A DNA stretch of 52,403 nt from a virus. Below are positions 11,591-46,285 of this stretch, piece by piece (position 1 is the stretch's first letter; each line of letters opens with the position of its first letter). The notes below the pieces were generated by a model. It did no database searches. It worked only from the letters and a program-made list of their open reading frames with translations, and was not told where the DNA came from. The stretch spans positions 1-52,403 of IMG/VR virus record IMGVR_UViG_3300032782_000001. One strand, written 5' to 3'. Made by a program: the position numbers and the translations under genes.

Positions 11591-11667
11591 GGTGGACCGG
11601 AAGGGATTCGAACCCTCAGTTAGGAAGTTTTTAAAACCTCTGTGTCTGCCTTTTCCACCACCGGTCC
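11591..11667 (-). tRNA. tRNA-like gene, anticodon UAA (Leu-type anticodon but short variable arm)
   Basis: 7/7-bp acceptor GGACCGG/CCGGTCC, T-arm GAGGG-TTCGAAT-CCCTT, anticodon arm GAGGT-TTTAAAA-ACTTC, 3-bp D-stem, 77 nt ending ACC; coordinates approximate. Confidence 0.55.
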
Positions 11668-14873: not shown

Positions 14874-15284
14874 TCAGCTTACGCCGAGGAAATCGGCGAC
14901 GGCATCCATTACGATCTGCTGGATCCCTTCGGGATCTTGCGTAATATCGAAACCCGGTTTCCCCTCAATGCTCCCGTTCTTCCAATCCCAACCGCCGACG
15001 TTGCCCGCATCGTCCAGCATCAAAATCATGACGCCAGCAACAGGGTTCCCATCGACCAGTCCTTGAAACTTGGCTGCAGGTTCATTTGGTTTCTTTGTAA
15101 CTTCCGTCATCTCTAGACGGTATCCGCCAGGCTGCATCGGATCGCCGGATTCCGCCTCGCCTTCGTTCATACTCGCGAGTACGACGCGGATCGCCGAACT
15201 TACGCGGACGCGACTCGGATTGGAAGATCGGTCAATTTTATCGGCGATCTCTCGCAAGGAGGCGGCAACCCGAGAAGGTATCAT
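14874..15284 (-). CDS. hypothetical protein, paralog of 2817..3272 (shared N-terminal 40 aa)
   Basis: ORF track; about 130-nt identity block with 3145-3290 including an in-frame cassette copy at 15165-15225. Confidence 0.6.
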   Translation of the reverse strand: MIPSRVAASLREIADKIDRSSNPSRVRVSSAIRVVLASMNEGEAESGDPMQPGGYRLEMTEVTKKPNEPAAKFQGLVDGNPVAGVMILMLDDAGNVGGWDWKNGSIEGKPGFDITQDPEGIQQIVMDAVADFLGVS

Positions 15285-25794: not shown

Positions 25795-25891
25795 TCGACT
25801 GTAAAGTGCTCGGCCCCAACTTCAAAAGCAGTGCGGCGCGCAGCCGCAAATTCGCCGCTGCTCCGCGTATCGGGCAGTGGAGGTGACGCGA

Positions 25892-27001
25892 ATGCTCACG
25901 AACATCAACGAGATCGATCAAGAGACGCTCATGCGGGTTCTCCGCTTCACGATCAAGTCGGGGGGCAATCTCATGACCTTCGGGCCGGCCGGCATCGGCA
26001 AGACCGAGATGGCCATGCAGGCCTGCAAGGAGGAGGGTTACAGGTTCGTCTATCTGAACCTGTCCGTCCTCGAGGCTCCGGACATGGTGGGCCTGCCGCA
26101 GGTCCAGGATGGCAAGACGAGCTATGCTCCGCCGGAGACCATCCCGCTGCGCGACGACAACCAGAAGAAGGTGGTGCTGCTCGTGGATGAGGTCGACAAG
26201 GCCAAGCCCGAGCTGCAGAACCCCTGCCTCGAGCTCTTCCAGTTCCGCGCCATGAACGGTCGCGAGATGAACATCCACAGCGTCATCGCGACGGGCAACC
26301 TGCCCGACGAGGGCGCCTTCTCGCAGCCCGTCAGCCACGCGCTCACGAACCGGTGCCTCGTGTTCAGGGTCACTCACGCCTTCGATCCGTGGCTGCAGTG
26401 GGCGACCGGCCCCGCGGCGGTCCATCCTCTCATCGTGGGCTTCCTCAGCAAGAACCCGGAGTACCTGCTCATGCCGGATGCCTCGGGTGACACCACGGCT
26501 TACTGCCATCCGAGCCCTCGCCAGTGGACCCTCGCCGCGAAGGACCTGGAGCACACGTCGACGGCGGACCACATCGACTTCCAGACGCTCCTCATCGCGG
26601 GTCGCGTCGGGACGGCGGCCGCCGTCAAGTTCCGGGTCTGGCTGGAGCACTACCGCCACGTCGAGCCCCTCATCGAGGCGCTCGTCAAGAAGGGCGAGCA
26701 CCCGGACATCAAGAACATGGCGATCGACCGCCAGTTCGTTTGTGCCCTGAGCGCCGTGGGTGCCATCGCAGCCGAATGCCGCAAGACGCTCGCCCCTGGC
26801 AAGGACAAGGAAGAGCAGAAGAAGAAGACCCACAAGTACACGGAGAACGTCTTCACGTGGCTCGGGAAGCTCCCCTCGGAGTTCGTCATCGGGGCCGTCA
26901 AGACGGTCCTCAACATGAAGATGATCCAGGACTACGACCTCACGAAGATCGCTCCGTTCATGCAGGAGTACATGAAGGTCAGGCAGGCCTTCAAGGACTG
27001 A
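25892..27001 (+). CDS. MoxR/AAA_5-type AAA+ ATPase
   Basis: Walker A GPAGIGKT, Walker B VVLLVDEVDKA; ORF track trimmed to Met6 after GGAGGTGACGCGA; cassette at 25840-25891; 11-bp perfect hairpin CCGAGTCTGCG..CGCAGACTCGG at 27027-27083. Confidence 0.8.
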   Translation: MLTNINEIDQETLMRVLRFTIKSGGNLMTFGPAGIGKTEMAMQACKEEGYRFVYLNLSVLEAPDMVGLPQVQDGKTSYAPPETIPLRDDNQKKVVLLVDEVDKAKPELQNPCLELFQFRAMNGREMNIHSVIATGNLPDEGAFSQPVSHALTNRCLVFRVTHAFDPWLQWATGPAAVHPLIVGFLSKNPEYLLMPDASGDTTAYCHPSPRQWTLAAKDLEHTSTADHIDFQTLLIAGRVGTAAAVKFRVWLEHYRHVEPLIEALVKKGEHPDIKNMAIDRQFVCALSAVGAIAAECRKTLAPGKDKEEQKKKTHKYTENVFTWLGKLPSEFVIGAVKTVLNMKMIQDYDLTKIAPFMQEYMKVRQAFKD

Positions 27002-27154
27002 TCTAGTATTCTCATAATCTTGACAAACCGAGTCTGCGTTAAGTTGATCTTATGGAAACAGAAGATCCTTCGCAGACTCGGATCGACGTCTAATTTCAGG
27101 AAGGGCAATCAAGGACTGGCACGGAATACTCCAGGTAAGATGAGATGTAATTGA

Positions 27155-27379
27155 ATGCCTCATGCCTGGATGAAGTATGAATCTGCAAACGCATACCGTC
27201 CTTACGGAGAAATGACTGGCACATACTTCCGTTTTGTATGTGCAAATTGTGGCCAAACCAAGATGCGAACAGATTCTCCCGAGTCTGATGAACGTCTTTG
27301 GACCAGCCCTTCTTGGTCCCCAAATGCCGTCCTGATGTCTTGCGAAGAAATCGTAGTTCTTGCAGTCATGGACTCTTGA
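27155..27379 (+). CDS. Cys-rich small protein, tail ...CEEIVVLAVMDS (tail family)
   Basis: ORF track. Confidence 0.5.
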   Translation: MPHAWMKYESANAYRPYGEMTGTYFRFVCANCGQTKMRTDSPESDERLWTSPSWSPNAVLMSCEEIVVLAVMDS

Positions 27380-27465
27380 ATGGCAGACATTCAAGCCGTC
27401 AAGGATTGACTTAAATTCTGAGAGTCTCCACGTATGTAGGTTCCAGGCCTTAGGAGGGCCATCTA

Positions 27466-28428
27466 ATGACCAAGGCAGCCGCTAAGCAGTCCGTTGTCAC
27501 CAGCCTCAATCAACTCGAGCATCTCTTGAGGTCTCAGGAGACTTCCACTCCCATCACGGACGTAGCACTCTCGGCTGCCGCTGCCAGGGAGATCATCGAG
27601 AAGTGGGGCAAGGGAAACAGGCCTGTCTCGGATGTGACGGTCCAAAAATATAAGGGGGATATGGAGAACAACCGCTGGCGTTCCCATTCCCCCATCGGGT
27701 TCGGTGTGTTTCCGGACAAGATTCAGATTGGCGATGGGCAGCACAGGCTCATCGCACAGGACAAATCCTCCACCACGCAGGTCTACAGCGTTCAAGCATT
27801 CTCGGATAGTGACGAGTTCGAGGTCTTCGTCAAGACGGTGGACTCTGGGAAGCCCCGGAAGTTGTCGGATCTCTTCAGCATCCTCGAGACCTTCCCCCCG
27901 AATCAGTCCGCTCGGGCCCAGGCCATCACCAATTTCATGATGAAGTTTAGTGACATCAAGCTCACTACCGAATCTCAGCAGGACAAGGTGGACTATGCCA
28001 CTAGTCACCTCAAAGCCATCAGGTTCGCTTCCAGCCTGAACTCGAAGGAGTTCCAATCTCACGTCGCCGCGGCAATCGCCATCGCTCACAAGAAGCATCA
28101 GCGTGTTGTCGAAGCATTCGTGGATGCTGTTCACTCTGGTGTCGGCCTTGCAGCTGGTTCTCCAGCTCTCGTATTCAAGAATGCACTCAATGATTTGAAT
28201 TGTATCGCGCTGACCAACAAGAAGGAGGTCAAGCCTCGAGATCGTGCAATGGCAGTGACTTTGCGGGTGATTTACGACCACGCTCGCAACAAGAAGACTT
28301 CACACGTCAAAAAAACTCGCACGGACTCGAAGTACCTCCATGAGGTGATTACGTATTTCATCTCTTCGGATGTCGCTGACCAGTATCTGGCTCGGCATGC
28401 CAAAGAGGACACTTCTCACACTCCGTGA
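27466..28428 (+). CDS. ParB/Srx-fold protein with DGQHR motif (DndB-like family)
   Basis: IQIGDGQHRLIA motif; AGGAGGG RBS. Confidence 0.65.
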   Translation: MTKAAAKQSVVTSLNQLEHLLRSQETSTPITDVALSAAAAREIIEKWGKGNRPVSDVTVQKYKGDMENNRWRSHSPIGFGVFPDKIQIGDGQHRLIAQDKSSTTQVYSVQAFSDSDEFEVFVKTVDSGKPRKLSDLFSILETFPPNQSARAQAITNFMMKFSDIKLTTESQQDKVDYATSHLKAIRFASSLNSKEFQSHVAAAIAIAHKKHQRVVEAFVDAVHSGVGLAAGSPALVFKNALNDLNCIALTNKKEVKPRDRAMAVTLRVIYDHARNKKTSHVKKTRTDSKYLHEVITYFISSDVADQYLARHAKEDTSHTP

Positions 28429-28435
28429 GGTATTG

Positions 28436-29365
28436 ATGGACATCAGGCATGTTCCGATTGAGGTCGACGACATCGTCGTCGACCATGACGTCATGATCCG
28501 GGATCGTTTGGATGAATCCTGGGTAAGGGAGCTCGCTGCCCTTTACGAAGATCGTCATCAGATCGATCCGATTCTTCTCATGAAAGACAAAGACGGAATC
28601 ATCCGCTTGGTGCACGGATTCTATCGGGTGGCCGCGCTGAAAATGTGCGGCCATTCCGGTACAACTGCAGAGATCCGCGAAGGTTCAAAGGATCAAGCCA
28701 TTCTTGCTGCATGCAGGGTGGACCATCATGGGTTGAGGAGGACTATTCAAGAGCAAAAGAAGGCAGTATTTCGGGTGAAAGAATCAGCCGAAATGAAGAA
28801 TTCAAGTAATAGGGCCATCGGAATTTATTGTGGTATTCCGGAGTGGGCCGTCGTCAAAATTCTTTTGGGCGAGGAACCTATCCTTGGTCCCAGGGTTTGC
28901 CATGTTTCAGTTCCTGGCGAACTCCCTTTGAAGAAGAACTTGACTGCCCTCTACGCGAAAATCGACTCGGCTCTCCGAGCTAATCCGAGCATGAATAGCA
29001 CGGAAATCAGCAAACTCTTGAAGTGCAACAGGGCGCTCGTTGCGAAGAGGCGGATTGAGATCGGAGTTCCTCAGGCTAACTTTCCGGGAAAGGCAAAACC
29101 TGAAGCTCGAGCCAGTATCATTGAATTACTGAAAAATAACCCCAAAAGGACTCTGGCTTCTATTGCTGAAGAGGTGGGAGTAGCCCCGTCCACTGTCAGT
29201 GGGATTAGGGACAAGCTACTAAAGGAGAAGAAGGAACAAGACGAGAAAAAGAAGGAACAAGCCCCGGCTCCCTCTGATGAAATGCCTTCGGCTCCCTTCA
29301 GGAAGGGAGCCCAACCCGATCCTCGCCTTACGTTCCAACAGTATAAGGTACGTTCAGGATCTTGA
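28436..29365 (+). CDS. ParB-like N-terminal domain protein with C-terminal HTH
   Basis: ILLMKDKDGIIRLVHGFYRVAALK (ParB GxxR box), HTH-like TLASIAEEVGVAPSTVSGIR; ORF track 28370 trimmed to Met23 after TGAGGTATTG; 15-bp hairpin downstream at about 29478-29513. Confidence 0.65.
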   Translation: MDIRHVPIEVDDIVVDHDVMIRDRLDESWVRELAALYEDRHQIDPILLMKDKDGIIRLVHGFYRVAALKMCGHSGTTAEIREGSKDQAILAACRVDHHGLRRTIQEQKKAVFRVKESAEMKNSSNRAIGIYCGIPEWAVVKILLGEEPILGPRVCHVSVPGELPLKKNLTALYAKIDSALRANPSMNSTEISKLLKCNRALVAKRRIEIGVPQANFPGKAKPEARASIIELLKNNPKRTLASIAEEVGVAPSTVSGIRDKLLKEKKEQDEKKKEQAPAPSDEMPSAPFRKGAQPDPRLTFQQYKVRSGS

Positions 29366-29578
29366 TTCAAGACTGGTTGCAAATCAATGTATATCCGAAG
29401 TTACCGTCGATGGACGGTTCAAGGACTGACGATCCCCTGAGGATCGCAAAGGAGTGGCGTTCGCACGTCACCTCCGCTCGCCTCGGAAGGTCTGGAATGG
29501 GCCAGATCTTCCGAGGCTGAGCCTTGTCGTGTAAGATCGTTCCGATTATGCACAGGAGATTGTCTCCTCGGTGATGCC

Positions 29579-29833
29579 TTGAAGGTCTTTAGGGAGAAGG
29601 ACCCGAAATCGGTCCAATGTCACCACGTCTACACCACCTTTGAAGTGGTACGGGAACAAGGACGATGTAAATATAAGGCATCCCGGTTCTTCATGTTGAT
29701 AGCGCTGGGGGCGTACTACGGATTTTGTAGGAAACATTGGAATGATGGTGAGAGATTGAATTCACCAGGAGAAACTCGGGCCACGGAGATCACCCGAGAC
29801 CAATACGTCGTCCATGAAATCATGGACTCTTGA
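29579..29833 (+). CDS. Cys-rich small protein, tail ...RDQYVVHEIMDS (tail family)
   Basis: ORF track; start uncertain (TTG). Confidence 0.45.
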   Translation: MKVFREKDPKSVQCHHVYTTFEVVREQGRCKYKASRFFMLIALGAYYGFCRKHWNDGERLNSPGETRATEITRDQYVVHEIMDS

Positions 29834-29899
29834 AAGGCAATTTGGCGTCGATCCGCAAATTCAGCGATCCGACGCGTATCGATCTGTGGAGGTGACGAA

Positions 29900-31387
29900 A
29901 TGCAGATGTCCGATGTCTCCAGGCTGAAAGACCCGAAGCGGGTCTGCACGAAGGAGGACGGGTCTTACGACCACGCCCGTCTCGCCCTCTTGCAAAAGAA
30001 GGTTTCCGACTGCATGACGAAGATGTTCCGCAAGCCCGAGGGCGGCGGAAACCCCTTCCTCTACGCCCTCACCCTGCCCAAGCCGCACGAGCTCGCCATC
30101 GAGCTCCCCGGGCCCAATGGGAAGGACTTCCACACGGCTGCCACCGACGGCAAGAAGTTCTGGTGGCACCCGGACTTCCTCGAGAAGCTGGACTCGGAAG
30201 AGGTGCCCACGGTCATGGAGCACGAGGGTTATCACGTGATCCTCTTCCATCCGCAACGTGGCGTGGGGACCAACCCCCGCATCTTCAACTGGGCGATCGA
30301 CTACGTTGTCAACGCCATCATCGAGACCAATCACAAGCAGCTCAACCGCAAGGGCAAGCTTTGGGGCGGGAACCTCGGCGAGCCGCTCTCGTTCGCGGAT
30401 CTTCTCTCGTACATCGATGGAAATTCGGAGCTCCCGAAGGACAAGAATTCCATCTTCGTGGACGTCTCGCTTCACGGACGGAGTCCGGAGTCGATCTACG
30501 AAGAGATCATGGATCATTGGGACAAGAGTCCGCGCAAGTGCTCTCTCTGTACGTGCCTGTCCATCGATCCGAAGACTGGCAAGCCCATCCACGCCCTTCA
30601 CGGCAAGAGCCCAGTGCCGCCGGAGAAACCGCACGACCCCCACTGCGACGGGACCTGCTGTCCCAAGTGTGGCGTCAAGTCGGACCCGCTCGGGTCGATG
30701 GACGCTCACATCCCGGGCGCCCTGACGAAAGATGAGGTCATGGCGGATATCATGCGCGCCAGGGACCAGTCGACGGCCATGAGGGGCACCGTTCCCTCCG
30801 AAGTGGAAGATGCGCTCAAAGAGCTGATGAAGCCTACGCTGAAGTTCACGGACATCGTCAAGTCCTGCTTCATGCGCAAGATCCAGGATGCTGGGATGAA
30901 GAACGACTGGAAGCGCTGCCGACGCCGGTGGTTGGCCTCCAATCCCAAGCAGTATCTCCCGAGGCGCCACACTCATCGGCCCCGGTGGCTTGCGATGGTG
31001 GACACCAGCGGCTCCATGCAGGACGATGATCTCCTCTACGGAATCTCTCAGCTCAAGGTTCTGGGAGACAACACGGAAGGTTACGTCATCCCCTGCGACG
31101 CATCTCCGAAATGGGATGCCATGCAGAAGATCGACAAGGCCACGGACCTGCAGAGGACCAAGATCGTCGGGCGCGGAGGAACGGTCTTCGATCAGTTCTT
31201 CCAGGACTTCCCGAAGAAGATCGGGACGGACTTCGACGTGGTGGTCATCATCACGGACGGAGACTGCGGGACGATCCCCCTGCACCTCAAGCCGCCGTGC
31301 GATGTCGTCTGGGTCATCACCCGGACCATGAAGGAGTATAAGCCCAGCTTCGGACGCGTGGCCCCGCTCCGCCCCTCTCGGATGTGA
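29900..31387 (+). CDS. VWA-domain protein with N-terminal HExxH metallopeptidase-like module (DUF2201-like partner of MoxR ATPases)
   Basis: HEGYHV motif, MIDAS DTSGSM; GGAGGTGACGAA-ATG; cassette at 29850-29899. Confidence 0.75.
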   Translation: MQMSDVSRLKDPKRVCTKEDGSYDHARLALLQKKVSDCMTKMFRKPEGGGNPFLYALTLPKPHELAIELPGPNGKDFHTAATDGKKFWWHPDFLEKLDSEEVPTVMEHEGYHVILFHPQRGVGTNPRIFNWAIDYVVNAIIETNHKQLNRKGKLWGGNLGEPLSFADLLSYIDGNSELPKDKNSIFVDVSLHGRSPESIYEEIMDHWDKSPRKCSLCTCLSIDPKTGKPIHALHGKSPVPPEKPHDPHCDGTCCPKCGVKSDPLGSMDAHIPGALTKDEVMADIMRARDQSTAMRGTVPSEVEDALKELMKPTLKFTDIVKSCFMRKIQDAGMKNDWKRCRRRWLASNPKQYLPRRHTHRPRWLAMVDTSGSMQDDDLLYGISQLKVLGDNTEGYVIPCDASPKWDAMQKIDKATDLQRTKIVGRGGTVFDQFFQDFPKKIGTDFDVVVIITDGDCGTIPLHLKPPCDVVWVITRTMKEYKPSFGRVAPLRPSRM

Positions 31388-31394
31388 TTTGCTG

Positions 31395-31430
31395 ATATAT
31401 GGCAGGGGTCGTTACGACCCCTGCCATATA
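31395..31430. repeat. TGGCAGGGG hairpin family member (ATATATGGCAGGGGTCG-TTA-CGACCCCTGCCATATA)
   Basis: read directly; intergenic, followed by GGGGAGGT-ATG of the next gene. Confidence 0.7.
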
Positions 31431-33017: not shown

Positions 33018-33374
33018 ATGGCTCGTACGCATTCCGATCAGGCGAAGATGGCGGTGGTTCTCGACGTGATGGAGGTGTCGGATGCCTTGAAGGGCAAGTC
33101 CTTCTCCATCACCGGCCATCTCGGTCGTCCGCGCCCCGAAATCGTGGAGATCATCACGAGGGCGGGCGGTCGTTTCGAGGAGAGGCCCAAGAACCTCTGG
33201 GGTAAGGATGCCTATCTGGTCACCAACGCCGACTGGACGAAGAATTCCATCAAGGGGAAGGTCTCGTCCAAGTTCGATGAGGCCAGGCGCAACGGCATCA
33301 AGATCATCTCGGAGGACGAGCTCTACAAGATGATCATCGACAACGACCCCAACATGAAGGACGAAGCATCGTGA
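33018..33374 (+). CDS. stand-alone BRCT-domain protein
   Basis: GKSFSITGHLGRPRPEIVEIITRAGGRFEERPK...AYLVTNAD...FDEARRNGIKIISEDELYKMI matches the LigA-type BRCT pattern; GGAGGTGACAC-ATG; cassette at 32970-33017. Confidence 0.65.
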   Translation: MARTHSDQAKMAVVLDVMEVSDALKGKSFSITGHLGRPRPEIVEIITRAGGRFEERPKNLWGKDAYLVTNADWTKNSIKGKVSSKFDEARRNGIKIISEDELYKMIIDNDPNMKDEAS

Positions 33375-45016: not shown

Positions 45017-46285
45017 GTGTCCGATCTCATCGAAGGTCAGATCCAATACGTCCAAGGGAGTGGGAAGAAGCCTTATGAGCTCCAGCTCAAAGGCGGCGTC
45101 TACAGCTGCTCTTGCATGGCTTGGCGCAACCAGAGCATCCCCATCAACAAGAGGACGTGCAAGCATCTCAAAATGGTGCGCGGAGACGCCGCCGAACAAG
45201 TGCGCGTCTCCGGAACTTTCCATCAAGCCGGCGTCACGTCGGGCCGCATTCAAACGGCAGTTCCCAACCAGACCAAGCCGCCACGCACCGACCCTGATTA
45301 TGAATTCACGCCGCAAGAAGACGGCCGCATCCCGATCATGACGTCGGACGAGTACGTGGCGGCGCAGCGACAGGCATTGACCCTTCTTGCAGAAGGGTCC
45401 TTTCGGGACAAGGAGTCCGTTCTCGCAGACGCCGAGCTGAAGGCCGGTCGCAAGCTTCGCCCCGACGAGAAGACCAAGCTCTTCGGGCCGCCCGTGCTCC
45501 TCGCGCATCCGTTCGAGGACGCCGAGGGCGTGGACCCGACGGGCTGGTGGATGTCCGAGAAGCTGGATGGGGTGCGCGCTTACTGGGACGGCAAGCAGTT
45601 CCTCTCGCGCCAGGGCAATGTCTTCCACGCGCCAGATTGGTTCAAGGCGGGTCTGCCGGACCATCCGCTCGATGGCGAACTCTGGACGGACCGTCGATCC
45701 TTCCAGCAGACCATCAGCATCGTCAAGTCGATTGATGCGGGTGAGAGGTGGAAGGCCATCAAGTACATGGTCTTCGATCTCCCGCACCTGACCACGCATT
45801 TCGAGCACCGGTACGAGCAGCTCGACAATCTCATGCTCGCCTCCACGAGCAAAGTGCTCAAGATGGTACAGCAGCGCTCATGCACGAGTCTGAACGACCT
45901 CAAGCAGGAACTCGAAAGGGTCGTCAAGCTTGGAGCCGAAGGGCTCATGATCCGCAAGCCCAAAAGCATGTACGAAGCGGGCCGAAGTTGGTCCATCCTG
46001 AAGGTGAAGCCATGGCGTGATTCCGAAGCCACCGTCGTTGGCTATGAGGCCGGAAAGGGTCGTCACAAGGGCAGGACGGGCGGGCTTATCGTCCGGCTCG
46101 ATGTCCCCTTCACCGACCCTCGTCTGAAGCGCGGCGCTGAATTCAATATCGGCACGGGCCTCTCGGACGAAGACCGCCGCAACCCTCCGGCCATTGGGAA
46201 GGTAGTCACGTTCCGCTACATGGACACCACCGATGCGGGGGTCCCGAAGGGCGCCAGCTTCGTCTCAGTGCGGGATTACGAATGA
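45017..46285 (+). CDS. ATP-dependent DNA ligase with N-terminal SWIM-type zinc finger
   Basis: SWIM-like CSCMAWRNQ...CKHL; ligase motif I EKLDGVRAY, motif III LDGELW, motif V EGLMIRKP..ILKVK; GGAGGTGACAC-GTG; cassette at 44955-45016. Confidence 0.8.
   Translation: MSDLIEGQIQYVQGSGKKPYELQLKGGVYSCSCMAWRNQSIPINKRTCKHLKMVRGDAAEQVRVSGTFHQAGVTSGRIQTAVPNQTKPPRTDPDYEFTPQEDGRIPIMTSDEYVAAQRQALTLLAEGSFRDKESVLADAELKAGRKLRPDEKTKLFGPPVLLAHPFEDAEGVDPTGWWMSEKLDGVRAYWDGKQFLSRQGNVFHAPDWFKAGLPDHPLDGELWTDRRSFQQTISIVKSIDAGERWKAIKYMVFDLPHLTTHFEHRYEQLDNLMLASTSKVLKMVQQRSCTSLNDLKQELERVVKLGAEGLMIRKPKSMYEAGRSWSILKVKPWRDSEATVVGYEAGKGRHKGRTGGLIVRLDVPFTDPRLKRGAEFNIGTGLSDEDRRNPPAIGKVVTFRYMDTTDAGVPKGASFVSVRDYE

What the first reader, a model, noticed from the sequence alone, without database searches (positions are those of the whole stretch)
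25892..31387. MoxR/AAA_5 ATPase and VWA-HExxH (DUF2201-like) pair bracketing two ParB/Srx-fold genes: candidate conflict or anti-defence module
The gene order is MoxR-like ATPase (25892-27001), small tail protein, DGQHR-motif protein (27466-28428), ParB-like protein with HTH (28436-29365), small tail protein, then VWA protein with N-terminal HExxH and MIDAS (29900-31387).

MoxR and VWA partners are a known chaperone-like pair, and established comparative genomics places such pairs in NTP-dependent conflict systems. DGQHR domains are the hallmark of DndB-type DNA-modification regulators. ParB-fold proteins act as CTP- or NTP-dependent DNA clamps or nucleases.

I am not aware of this particular combination, in a phage-like context with no dndACDE genes and no ParA, as a named system.
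Basis: partly seen in the sequence, partly recalled or inferred. Interest (0 to 1): 0.75.

Follow-up and report, generated by a model that had tools for sequence, protein, structure and literature searches.

The report
Phage ATPase–peptidase pair with inserted ParB cassette
The four genes are real, but they are two unrelated units: a well-known phage ATPase plus peptidase pair whose intergenic gap collects variable cargo in this giant-phage lineage, and a separate two-gene ParB-type DNA-binding cassette that sits in that gap only here, so it is not a new four-gene system.

Summary
The gene order and coordinates are correct. The MoxR-type AAA+ ATPase (25892-27001) and the HExxH-peptidase/VWA protein (29900-31387) are well supported. 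They are homologues of phage N4 gp24/gp25, a pair already described in N4-like and jumbo phages.

The DGQHR-motif protein (27466-28428) has a ParB/sulfiredoxin fold but fails the DndB/DGQHR family threshold. The next protein (28436-29365) is a ParB N-domain plus HTH protein.

- In 57 viral loci that carry both genes, MoxR lies just upstream of VWA (median gap 10 nt in ~70-kb N4-like-size contigs).
- In the window's giant-phage relatives the gap is 0-3.8 kb of non-homologous cargo.
- No such locus contains a DGQHR or ParB homologue.
- The DGQHR+ParB-HTH pair recurs as a tight two-gene cassette in four other phage-like elements (five contigs) that lack MoxR/VWA.
- GC3 also separates core from cargo: 0.92 and 0.84 for MoxR and VWA, 0.43-0.67 for the four genes between them.

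MoxR, the cassette and VWA each have their own copy of a window-wide promoter-like element.

Verdict: ordinary juxtaposition, low novelty. More unusual features were noticed in passing, namely C-terminal "VMES" tails on about 37 ORFs and the promoter-like element.

The parts
25820..25888 (+). Promoter-like element plus Shine-Dalgarno sequence upstream of the MoxR gene: CGCAAATTC-N11-CGTATCG-N7-GGAGGTGACG, followed by ATG at 25892.
   Evidence: It is a 69-nt direct repeat of 29829-29897 (74% identity). It is one of 19 CGYAAATTC sites against 1.0 expected.
25892..27001 (+). MoxR-type AAA+ ATPase (369 aa), homologue of phage N4 gp24.
   Evidence: AAA_5 and phrog_1297. A family profile hits Midasin AAA domains at E 2e-18. 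It is 53-73% identical to syntenic genes in L007, L008, L009 and L012. GC3 is 0.916.
27155..27379 (+). Small Cys-rich ORF (74 aa) ending in ...VVLAVMDS. It is lineage-specific 'tail' cargo and not part of either unit.
   Evidence: It has only a weak zinc-finger hit (HVO_0758, E 0.05-0.06). tblastn found no match to it in any of the loci searched. GC3 is 0.43.
27413..27465 (+). Diverged copy of the same promoter-like element upstream of the DGQHR gene: AAATTC-N12-CGTATG ... GGAGG-N8-ATG.
   Evidence: The bipartite pattern AAATTC-N9-14-CGTAY occurs 21 times against 0.15 expected.
27466..28428 (+). DGQHR-motif ParB/Srx-fold protein (320 aa) with a helical C-terminal domain. First gene of a two-gene cassette.
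28436..29365 (+). ParB N-terminal domain plus HTH protein (309 aa). Second gene of the cassette, starting 7 nt after the stop of the first gene behind a GAGG.
29480..29517 (+). Hairpin (16-nt arms, 94% complementary, 6-nt loop) downstream of the cassette. It is a possible transcript end, but it has no T-run.
   Evidence: inverted repeat I5.
29579..29833 (+). Small ORF (84 aa) ending in ...VVHEIMDS. Lineage-specific 'tail' cargo.
   Evidence: Its only homologue lies downstream of the VWA gene in L007.
29829..29897 (+). Promoter-like element plus Shine-Dalgarno sequence upstream of the VWA gene. Second copy of the 69-nt repeat.
   Evidence: The same element precedes both MoxR and VWA in L008, and precedes VWA in L012 and L101.
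29900..31387 (+). Zincin-like HExxH peptidase domain, Cys4 insert and VWA/MIDAS domain (495 aa). Homologue of phage N4 gp25.
   Evidence: GC3 is 0.841.
31396..31430 (.). Perfect 17-bp inverted repeat immediately after the VWA stop codon. Possible terminator or binding site.
   Evidence: inverted repeat I2.

Best explanation
The locus is a juxtaposition of two independent units inside a giant (436-kb contig) phage-like genome.

Unit 1 is the conserved phage pair MoxR-type AAA+ ATPase plus peptidase-VWA protein (N4 gp24/gp25 type).
- Inferred from what is known of MoxR-VWA pairs and Midasin: the VWA MIDAS site grips an acidic residue of a protein substrate, and the AAA+ ring remodels that substrate using ATP.
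- Inferred from the invariant HExxHxxxxH motif: the fused zincin domain cleaves the substrate.
- The target is unknown. Virion or complex maturation has been proposed in the literature.
- In the ~70-kb N4-like-size contigs and in the most divergent giant contigs the two genes abut, which I infer to be the ancestral state. In the window's lineage their intergenic spot has become a slot that accumulates variable accessory genes.

Unit 2 is a mobile two-gene cassette that occupies this slot only in this genome. It consists of a DGQHR-motif ParB/Srx-fold protein and a closely spaced ParB_N-HTH protein.
- Inferred: the two proteins form an NTP-binding, sequence-specific DNA-binding pair acting on phage or host DNA, in regulation, marking or protection.
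- It is not a partition system and not a Dnd system.

MoxR, the cassette and VWA each have their own copy of a window-wide promoter-like element. They are probably expressed in the same temporal class as at least 18 other genes in the window, not as one operon.

Shown: homology, synteny, the variable gap, the independence of the cassette, the composition difference and the repeated upstream elements. Inferred: all biochemical activities and the biological roles.
For: Domain calls.

The pair is N4 gp24/gp25:
- JWAlpha gp33 is annotated 'similar to N4 gp24' and gp36 'similar to N4 gp25'.
- The pair was tabulated with unknown function in 2009 (PMC2784036).
- It was described as a MoxR plus metallopeptidase-vWA chaperone pair of jumbo phages (PMC7824862).

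Synteny:
- MoxR (53-73% identity), VWA (59-71%), the upstream genes and the downstream BRCT gene are conserved in L007, L008 and L012. L009 shares MoxR, VWA, BRCT and two of the upstream genes, the latter on the opposite strand.
- None of these loci contains a DGQHR or ParB homologue.
- In 57 IMG/VR loci that carry both genes, MoxR is upstream on the same strand. The four other VWA-derived loci are cut at a contig or locus end.
- The median gap is 10 nt in 44 of the ~70-kb N4-like-size contigs. It is 1.9 kb (range -38 to 3788) in 18 giant-contig relatives.
- The gap cargo is almost entirely non-homologous between relatives, and no VWA locus has a hit to the DGQHR or ParB-HTH profile.

Cassette independence:
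- DGQHR homologues of 41-50% identity in L003, L004/L005, L006 and L013 are each followed immediately by a full-length ParB_N-HTH orthologue (30-37% identity, BLASTP E 3e-37 and 2e-40 for L004 and L006).
- None of these loci has MoxR or VWA nearby.

Composition: GC3 is 0.916 for MoxR and 0.841 for VWA. It is 0.43, 0.67, 0.54 and 0.57 for the four genes between them.

Separate same-class upstream elements lie at 25848, 27413 and 29857.
Against: - Physical proximity and a shared promoter class still allow a functional interaction in this particular phage.
- In 2 of 80 loci of the wider DGQHR family, a VWA gene lies within about 2-4.5 kb. L089 has adjacent MoxR and VWA genes about 2 kb upstream of the DGQHR-family gene, and L067 has a VWA gene alone.
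- The sample of close relatives is modest: 18 giant contigs with a measurable gap.
- Only 52 kb of the 436-kb contig could be read, so partners elsewhere in the genome (ParA, DNA-modification genes) cannot be excluded.
- No biochemical activity was tested.
- The AF2 model of the ParB-HTH protein was unusable (pLDDT 51), so its N-domain call rests on weak-to-moderate profile evidence.
Confidence: 0.8

Rival explanations
1. The four large genes form one NTP-dependent conflict or anti-defence system, in which the MoxR/VWA chaperone-protease pair loads, activates or processes the two ParB-fold proteins.
For: - The genes are adjacent on one strand.
- All three transcription units carry the same class of upstream element.
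- In L089 a DGQHR-family gene lies about 2 kb downstream of an adjacent MoxR-VWA pair.
Against: - There is no co-conservation. None of the 57 loci with both MoxR and VWA, and none of the 4 closest syntenic loci, has a DGQHR or ParB-HTH homologue.
- The cassette occurs without MoxR/VWA in four other elements.
- Codon composition differs sharply between the pair and the genes between them.
- The same promoter-like element precedes at least 18 other genes.
- PADLOC gives no hit for the two ParB-fold proteins or for VWA, and only weak AAA+ hits for MoxR.
- bpMoxR scores below threshold (12.6 bits against 27).
Confidence: 0.06
2. The MoxR-to-VWA gap is a lineage-wide hotspot for accessory genes. 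The DGQHR+ParB-HTH cassette is one such cargo, acting as an anti-defence factor, for example by shielding or marking phage DNA or by countering ParB/DUF262-type or DNA-modification-based host immunity.
For: - Gap length varies from 0 to 3.8 kb, and the gap content is almost entirely non-homologous among 18 relatives.
- The cargo has lower GC3 than the flanking pair.
- The motif TCAAGGAYTG marks the gene junctions, and the MoxR 3' end is partly duplicated at 27095-27118.
Against: - There is no direct evidence for any anti-defence activity.
- The cassette lies in ordinary early or replication regions in other phages, next to RuvC, SSB, integrase or Dam genes.
- A regulatory or DNA-metabolism role fits the evidence equally well.
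Confidence: 0.3
3. The two ParB-fold proteins are a ParA-less segregation or genome-organisation system for the giant phage genome, for example in a carrier or pseudolysogenic state. The ParB_N-HTH protein would bind a centromere-like site.
For: - The N-domain is 30-36% identical to plasmid ParB/RepB/Spo0J partition proteins.
- An HTH is present.
- The GxxR motif is conserved (G61, R64).
Against: - No ParA-type Walker A occurs anywhere in the window.
- No LG(R/K)GL ParA-binding motif is visible at the N-terminus (sequence).
- Scanned on its own, the window protein does not reach Pfam ParB_N, and its only canonical ParB-family NCBIfam hit is the Noc model at 13.7 bits against a cut-off of 315.
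- Relatives of the pair sit in about 17-48-kb (the L005 copy only 6 kb) phage-like contigs, and the L006 pair lies close to an integrase gene.
- Neither GTDB genome scan (queried with the ParB-HTH alignment and with the close DGQHR subfamily alignment) returned a confirmed relative. On plasmids the DGQHR protein has no match and the ParB-HTH protein matches only over its N-terminal ParB domain.
Confidence: 0.08
4. The MoxR/VWA-peptidase pair acts on the many proteins of this lineage that end in ...V..VM(E/D)S. The VWA MIDAS site would bind the acidic residue of the tail, and the AAA+ ring and zincin domain would then unfold or clip the tagged proteins. This would be a phage-encoded, FtsH-like, tag-directed turnover or maturation system.
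For: - About 37 ORFs in the window carry the tail, and the varying serine, valine and glutamate codons point to selection on the peptide rather than the DNA.
- The tail occurs in several relatives that also carry this MoxR/VWA pair: L008, L009, L012, L093, L096, L101 and L104.
- From general knowledge, MIDAS sites complete their metal coordination with an acidic residue of the ligand, as in Midasin and CbbQO.
- The ATPase family profile hits Midasin.
Against: - N4-like phages and the more distant giant contigs (L100, L102, L103, L106) have the pair but no tails, so the pair does not need tails.
- The co-occurrence may simply reflect shared ancestry.
- No interaction evidence exists.
Confidence: 0.05

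Closest known systems
Phage N4 gp24 (AAA ATPase) / gp25 (vWFA) pair. It is conserved in N4-like Schitoviridae and is also present in rV5-like Vequintavirinae. The same MoxR plus metallopeptidase-vWA pair was described for 'group 2.2' jumbo phages (Iyer et al. 2021, PMC7824862).
   Same: - Same two families: phrog_1297 and phrog_1314; AAA_5; DUF2201_N plus DUF2201.
- Same order and strand.
- Invariant HExxHxxxxH and MIDAS residues.
   Different: - Only 20-29% identity to the N4-like and rV5-like proteins.
- The window's lineage adds a Cys4 insert between the peptidase and VWA domains (C214, C217, C254, C257 nearly invariant).
- In this lineage the two genes have been split by a 0.3-3.8-kb variable slot in most of the closer relatives. 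In both the window and L008 the same upstream element precedes each of the two genes.
Cellular MoxR-VWA chaperone pairs (RavA-ViaA, CbbQ-CbbO, NorQ-NorD, CoxD-CoxE), eukaryotic Midasin/Rea1, and the MoxR-VWA pair implicated in tail development of the archaeal virus ATV.
   Same: An AAA_5-type ATPase partnered with a MIDAS-containing VWA protein. The ATPase family profile hits Midasin AAA domains at E 2e-18.
   Different: - Here the VWA domain is fused to a zincin-like peptidase domain.
- No known substrate gene is nearby.
- There is no sequence-level match to any solved MoxR or VWA partner: the VWA family profile found no PDB hit.
- The role is inferred by analogy only.
MoxR-vWA-based NTP-dependent conflict systems (Kaur, Burroughs, Iyer, Aravind 2020, PMC7159879).
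   Same: A MoxR-like ATPase is present with a VWA partner.
   Different: - bpMoxR scores 12.6 bits against a cut-off of 27.
- No beta-propeller or effector component was identified in the module.
- The context is viral, not a bacterial defence locus.
- PADLOC gives only weak AAA+ hits.
DndB / DGQHR-domain proteins (TIGR03187) and other ParB/Srx-fold NTPases such as DUF262/GmrS (BrxU, SspE).
   Same: - Literal DGQHR motif.
- BFVD structural neighbours include proteins annotated as sulfur-modification-associated.
   Different: - TIGR03187 scores 14.4 bits against a cut-off of 58.85.
- No dnd genes are nearby.
- The protein belongs to a very large unannotated family: 31,997 clusters at 50% identity, with no Pfam or NCBIfam model matching the members tested.
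ParB-CTPase-fold proteins of phages (survey in PMC12704722), KorB/Noc/ParB-type N-domain plus HTH proteins, and the ParB-like activators of phage thymine dioxygenases (PMC13229309).
   Same: - N-terminal ParB fold with the GxxR motif, followed by an HTH.
- Encoded by a mobile element.
- It works next to a partner gene.
   Different: - No ParA gene, no dioxygenase gene and no methyltransferase fusion.
- The partner is a second, divergent ParB/Srx-fold protein.
- The nucleotide specificity and the DNA target are unknown.

Membership tests
MoxR-type AAA+ (Pfam AAA_5 clade) | AAA_5 profile match above the gathering score, with intact Walker A and Walker B motifs. | tested here: met
   AAA_5 scores 30.3 bits against a cut-off of 22. 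GPAGIGKT and LLVDEVD are read in the translation. G34, G36, K37, D99 and E100 are invariant in 14 homologues. The family profile hits Midasin AAA domains at E 2e-18.
MoxR-type AAA+ (Pfam AAA_5 clade) | A conserved neighbouring VWA/MIDAS partner gene. | tested here: met
   MoxR is upstream of VWA on the same strand in all 57 IMG/VR loci that carry both genes and in all 4 close loci.
MoxR-type AAA+ (Pfam AAA_5 clade) | Hexameric ATPase with chaperone or remodelling activity. | not testable with these tools
   This requires biochemistry.
DUF2201_N + DUF2201 (N4 gp25-type peptidase-VWA) | Both Pfam domains above their gathering scores. | tested here: met
   DUF2201_N scores 77 bits against 23.2, and DUF2201 scores 39.2 bits against 26.4. 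phrog_1314 matches at E 5e-53.
DUF2201_N + DUF2201 (N4 gp25-type peptidase-VWA) | An HExxH zinc site and a complete MIDAS motif (DxSxS...T...D). | tested here: met
   H108, E109, H112, H117, D368, S370, S372, T428 and D453 are invariant in 22 sequences, including N4-like and rV5-like homologues.
DndB / DGQHR domain (TIGR03187) | Profile score above the NCBIfam cut-off. | tested here: not met
   14.4 bits against 58.85, E 0.023. No Pfam hit at E <= 0.1.
DndB / DGQHR domain (TIGR03187) | DGQHR sequence motif on a ParB/Srx-like fold. | tested here: met
DndB / DGQHR domain (TIGR03187) | Association with dndACDE (or dpd/ssp) DNA-modification genes. | tested here: not met
   - The only P-loop ORF in the window is MoxR.
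- No ORF exceeds 500 aa.
- The other large ORFs tested (13 with Pfam or PHROGs) gave only BRCT and DNA-ligase hits.
- The neighbourhoods of the homologues contain no dnd genes.
- The rest of the 436-kb contig was not readable.
Canonical ParB (partition; ParB_N PF02195 / TIGR00180) | ParB N-terminal CTPase-fold domain with the GxxR motif. | tested here: inconclusive
   - The window protein itself does not reach Pfam ParB_N.
- Only one of the 4 orthologues scanned matches ParB_N (E 7e-4), although the precomputed tables mark ParB_N on L004/L005 (unmarked) and on L006 (marked weak).
- The family profile hits sulfiredoxin, ParB and Noc structures at E 0.002-0.009.
- The N-domain is 30-36% identical to plasmid ParB proteins (E 4e-9).
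- G61, F62 and R64 are invariant.
- The AF2 model was too poor to use.
Canonical ParB (partition; ParB_N PF02195 / TIGR00180) | A ParA partner and an N-terminal ParA-binding motif LG(R/K)GL. | tested here: not met
   No KGGxGK[ST] motif and no other Walker A occurs in the window apart from MoxR. No such motif is visible in the N-terminus (sequence).
   No locus other than the window contains both units in this arrangement. This covers 153 loci scanned with four profile HMMs, three further loci scanned separately, and tblastn on the first twelve loci.
MoxR-vWA ternary conflict systems (bpMoxR) | bpMoxR profile above its cut-off, with associated beta-propeller or effector genes. | tested here: not met
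   bpMoxR scores 12.6 bits against 27. No such neighbouring genes were found.

The most novel reading that the evidence does not exclude
The DGQHR-motif protein and the ParB_N-HTH protein form a previously undescribed hetero-complex of two divergent ParB/Srx-fold NTPases. This would be a mobile two-gene 'switch' cassette that phages exchange and that lands in accessory-gene hotspots such as the MoxR-to-VWA slot, where it acts on DNA in phage-host conflict. The about 570-aa tandem-duplicated members of the same superfamily, in which one copy has a degenerate motif (DGRLRL in the copy read), would be the fused equivalent of such an asymmetric dimer.
Probability: 0.15. Interest if true: 0.55.

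Novelty: new member of a known kind. Interest (0 to 1): 0.27.

Why it matters
As proposed, the finding would have been a new multi-gene conflict system. The evidence instead shows an ordinary juxtaposition, which avoids a false 'new system' call.

Four things remain useful:
- The N4 gp24/gp25-type ATPase-peptidase pair extends, at 33-73% identity, into a lineage of 130-460-kb phage contigs. There its intergenic gap behaves as a cargo slot, which makes it a convenient landmark for mining accessory genes.
- A rare but recurrent DGQHR+ParB-HTH two-gene cassette is defined.
- The DGQHR-motif family is very large (about 32,000 clusters at 50% identity) and has no Pfam or NCBIfam model among the members tested.
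- Each of the three units is preceded by its own copy of one window-wide promoter-like element, whose temporal class could be tested by transcriptomics.

Tried and rejected
- Stop-codon recoding as the reason for the absence of long ORFs. Reassigning TAG or TAA hardly changes the ORFs, and reassigning TGA opens all frames non-specifically. Rejected as uninformative.
- DNA-level similarity to known phages: none.
- Single-protein scans of IMG/VR for close relatives of VWA and of the DGQHR protein: none. Alignment-based scans were needed.
- AF2 of the ParB-HTH protein from a 2-sequence alignment failed (pLDDT 51) and was not used.
The one metagenome scan found only three distant ParB_N proteins without a DGQHR partner.
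- PADLOC: no defence-system match for the ParB-fold proteins or for VWA.
- PHROGs and Pfam on 13 other large window ORFs gave nothing except BRCT and DNA ligase.
- The afdb50 fold library was unavailable.
- I considered that L003 and L007, which come from the same sample, might be one genome with the cassette located elsewhere. L003 shares no other genes, tails or promoter elements with the window lineage, so this was not claimed.
- The sigma-70 promoter and intrinsic-terminator scan gave counts no higher than shuffled sequence.

Full report
**Observation**

The six + strand ORFs are present exactly as described.
- The MoxR-like gene starts at ATG 25892 and the VWA gene at ATG 29900. Each lies 2-4 nt after a GGAGGTGACG Shine-Dalgarno sequence that belongs to a conserved upstream element.
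- The ParB-like gene starts at 28436, 7 nt after the DGQHR gene's stop codon and behind a GAGG. This matches the public gene call, P0133, of 309 aa.
- The window lies on a 436,316-bp metagenomic contig.

**Domain calls: the ATPase and the VWA protein**

The ATPase is well supported.
- It matches Pfam AAA_5 above threshold and phrog_1297 at E 4e-49.
- Its Walker A and B motifs are canonical.
- A profile of 14 homologues hits the AAA domains of Midasin at E 2e-18. This places it in the MoxR/midasin/dynein clade.

The 495-aa protein is also well supported.
- It matches DUF2201_N (putative metallopeptidase) and DUF2201 (VWA-like) above threshold, and phrog_1314 at E 5e-53.
- In an alignment of 22 homologues that reaches N4-like and rV5-like phages, the HExxHxxxxH residues and the full MIDAS motif (D368, S370, S372, T428, D453) are invariant.
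- A Cys4 cluster between the two domains is nearly invariant in the close family.

**Domain calls: the two ParB-fold proteins**

The 'DGQHR' protein carries the literal motif, and G-Q-H-R is invariant in its family. It has no Pfam hit, and it scores 14.4 bits against TIGR03187, whose cut-off is 58.85. It is therefore not a DndB-family member by that test.

An AF2 model (pLDDT 83.5) shows a ParB/Srx-type N-domain followed by a helical domain.
- BFVD neighbours are annotated ParB-like, ParB/Sulfiredoxin, GmrSD-N or sulfur-modification-associated.

The family is very large. It has 31,997 clusters at 50% identity with E <= 1e-3. The members tested have no matching Pfam or NCBIfam model, and the database names seen for them are all 'hypothetical protein'. 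About 570-aa members are tandem duplications of the module.

The ParB-like protein has a clear HTH at aa 228-263. Its N-domain is supported more weakly but consistently:
- phrog_1033;
- a family profile that hits sulfiredoxin, ParB and Noc structures at E 0.002-0.009;
- Pfam ParB_N marks on the L004/L005 and L006 orthologues in the collection's precomputed Pfam table (unmarked on L004/L005, marked weak on L006);
- 30-36% identity to plasmid partition ParB proteins.

No ParA-type or any other P-loop ORF exists in the window apart from MoxR.

**Is it one module?**

No. I tested co-conservation from both sides.

(a) Relatives of the VWA protein.
- Relatives at 47-73% identity are abundant, and many lie on 100-460-kb contigs.
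- In L007, L008 and L012, MoxR (53-73% identity), VWA (59-71%), the genes upstream of MoxR (window 21.7-25.4 kb) and a downstream BRCT gene are syntenic with the window. L009 shares MoxR, VWA, BRCT and two of the upstream genes, the latter on the opposite strand.
- The stretch between MoxR and VWA differs in each locus. L007 has one 532-aa gene. L008 has a 304-aa gene plus five small ones. L009 has one 98-aa gene. L012 has eight small genes.
- tblastn finds no DGQHR or ParB homologue in any of these loci.

(b) Profile HMMs for the four families, scanned over 153 fetched loci.
- All 57 IMG/VR loci that contain both genes have MoxR upstream of VWA on the same strand.
- The median gap is 10 nt in 44 contigs of about 70 kb (N4-like size), and 0 to 5 nt in the most divergent giant contigs. 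I infer that adjacency is the ancestral state.
- In the window's closer relatives the gap is 0.3-3.8 kb. The cargo shows almost no homology between genomes.
- None of these loci has a DGQHR-family or ParB-HTH hit.

(c) Relatives of the DGQHR protein.
- Its closest homologues (41-50% identity) in L003, L004/L005, L006 and L013 are each followed at once by a full-length orthologue of the ParB_N-HTH protein. In most the two genes overlap by 4 nt. Identity is 30-37%, and BLASTP gives E 3e-37 and 2e-40 for L004 and L006.
- These are otherwise unrelated phage-like contigs without MoxR/VWA. They carry neighbours such as RuvC, Dam methylase, SSB, integrase, terminase and portal genes.
- More distant family members are mostly stand-alone. 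Only 2 of 80 have a VWA gene within about 2-4.5 kb (L089, which also has MoxR, and L067).

(d) Composition.
- GC3 is 0.916 for MoxR and 0.841 for VWA. This resembles other conserved genes such as BRCT (0.83) and the ligase (0.77).
- The four genes between them have GC3 of 0.43, 0.67, 0.54 and 0.57.

**Transcription architecture**

A 69-nt direct repeat precedes both MoxR (25820-25888) and VWA (29829-29897).
- It is one instance of a window-wide element, CGYAAATTC-N11-CGTATYG-N7-GGAGGTGAC-N2-4-ATG.
- It has 19 exact cores against 1.0 expected. A looser bipartite pattern has 21 copies against 0.15 expected.
- Nearly every copy is oriented with the local coding strand, and most lie a fixed distance before a start codon.
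- A diverged copy at 27413 precedes the DGQHR gene.
- In L008 the element again precedes both MoxR and VWA.

MoxR, the cassette and VWA are therefore probably separate transcription units of one temporal class, shared with at least 18 other genes in the window. This does not link them specifically.

A hairpin follows the cassette (29480-29517), and a perfect 17-bp palindrome follows VWA (31396-31430).

The motif TCAAGGAYTG occurs four times on the + strand within 26991-29428, at the gene junctions. The whole window has 5 copies against 0.33 expected. The 3' end of MoxR is partly duplicated at 27095-27118. This is compatible with insertion by recombination at that spot.

**What it most likely is and does**

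Unit 1 is the N4 gp24/gp25-type pair.
- Its conservation in N4-like phages has been known since at least 2009 (PMC2784036; JWAlpha annotation).
- Iyer et al. 2021 described the MoxR plus metallopeptidase-vWA pair in jumbo phages and proposed a role in virion assembly and processing (PMC7824862).
- By analogy with MoxR-VWA pairs and Midasin (established knowledge, not tested here), the MIDAS site would engage an acidic residue of a substrate, the AAA+ ring would remodel it, and the fused zincin domain would cleave it.
- The substrate is unknown. The genomic context is early or DNA-metabolism genes: dCTP deaminase and thymidylate synthase in JWAlpha, and BRCT and ligase here. This leaves a non-structural target equally possible.

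Unit 2 is a translationally coupled pair of divergent ParB/Srx-fold proteins, one with an HTH.
- The conserved GxxR arginines suggest NTP binding.
- A recent survey shows that phage ParB-CTPase folds bind CTP, ATP or GTP and suggests phage-host conflict roles for them (PMC12704722).
- ParB-like proteins can also act as activators of phage DNA-modifying enzymes (PMC13229309).
- I infer an NTP-regulated, sequence-specific DNA-binding pair acting in regulation or protection of DNA.
- It is neither a partition system (no ParA) nor a Dnd system.

**Novelty and score**

- The MoxR/VWA pair is a new, divergent member of a known phage pair.
- The ParB-fold proteins are new members of a known superfamily.
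- The recurrent DGQHR+ParB-HTH cassette and the variable cargo slot are modest new observations.
- The four-gene 'system' is not real.
- Interest is low to moderate (0.27).

The features I find more unusual lie outside the finding. They are the C-terminal ...V..VM(E/D)S tails on about 37 ORFs and the promoter-like element, both shared with related giant contigs.

Noticed in passing
Whole window. Examples of ORF ends: 23731, 24801, 25360, 25597, 25794, 27379, 29833, 31741, 32070, 34809, 35245, 41723, 47603 (+ strand); 6690, 6944, 7156, 7960, 8160, 8699, 19425, 20103, 37410, 37666 (- strand).: About 37 ORFs of 43-287 aa, mostly otherwise unannotated, end in a shared C-terminal peptide. The consensus is roughly (I/L)(S/T)xEE(F/L)xVxxVM(E/D)S followed by the stop codon.
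- The codons for Ser (TCN/AGY), Val and Glu vary, so selection appears to act on the peptide and not on a DNA motif.
- The same 'MES' tails occur in related giant contigs (L008, L009, L012, L093, L096, L101, L104).
- They are absent from N4-like phages and from the loci carrying the ParB cassette.
- They could be a sorting signal, a degron or a docking helix. Their function is unknown.
   Followed up: partly
Window, 21 sites. Examples: 23089, 24130, 25848, 27413, 29857, 34326, 35253, 41746, 43099, 44975 (+ strand); 40000, 21205, 20890, 17000, 13273, 12513 (- strand).: A highly conserved element of about 50 nt, CGYAAATTC-N11-CGTATYG-N7-GGAGGTGAC-N2-4-ATG, is nearly always oriented with the local coding strand and in most copies lies just before a start codon.
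- It has 19 exact cores against 1.0 expected, and 21 copies of the bipartite pattern against 0.15 expected.
- It is probably a phage-specific promoter followed by a very strong Shine-Dalgarno sequence.
- It also occurs in L007, L008, L012, L101 and L104.
   Followed up: partly
window 26991, 27109, 27399, 29419 (+ strand); 15057-15066 (- strand): TCAAGGAYTG occurs 5 times in the window against 0.33 expected. Four copies sit at gene junctions inside the finding, and the last about 25 nt of the MoxR gene are partly duplicated at 27095-27118. This may be a scar of cargo insertion, or a binding site.
   Followed up: partly
Whole window and its contig: The window comes from a 436-kb contig whose relatives in IMG/VR are 131-459 kb.
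- No ORF in the 52 kb exceeds 500 aa.
- Twelve of the 13 other large ORFs tested against Pfam or PHROGs have no hit; the thirteenth is the DNA ligase.
- The 10-22 kb stretch is almost devoid of ORFs longer than 150 aa.
- Stop-codon reassignment does not explain this.
   Followed up: partly
window 27466-28428 and proteins P0135-P0277: The DGQHR-motif ParB/Srx family has about 32,000 clusters at 50% identity, 12,028 of them at E <= 1e-30. The members tested have no matching Pfam or NCBIfam model. Many members of about 570 aa are tandem duplications; in the one read (P0135) the first copy has a degenerate motif (DGRLRL) and the second keeps DGQHRL.
   Followed up: partly
window 33018-33374 and 45017-46285: A stand-alone BRCT-domain protein (E 8e-10) is syntenic downstream of VWA in L008, L009 and L012. 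An ATP-dependent DNA ligase (DNA_ligase_A_M plus OB_2) lies at 45-46 kb.
   Followed up: partly
window 30539-30670 (VWA residues 214-257): A Cys4 cluster (C214, C217, C254, C257) lies between the peptidase and VWA domains. It is nearly invariant in the giant-phage subfamily and is probably a zinc ribbon.
   Followed up: partly
window 31396-31430: A perfect 17-bp inverted repeat with a 1-nt spacer (TATATGGCAGGGGTCGT / ACGACCCCTGCCATATA) lies 9 nt after the VWA stop codon.
   Followed up: no
window 11591-11667 (- strand): A tRNA-Leu gene (anticodon TAA).
   Followed up: no
L003 12412-13078: One contig that carries the ParB cassette also encodes a release-factor-like gene (PCRF/RF-1), called as two pieces. 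It also carries two receiver-domain proteins and a Dam methylase next to the cassette.
   Followed up: no
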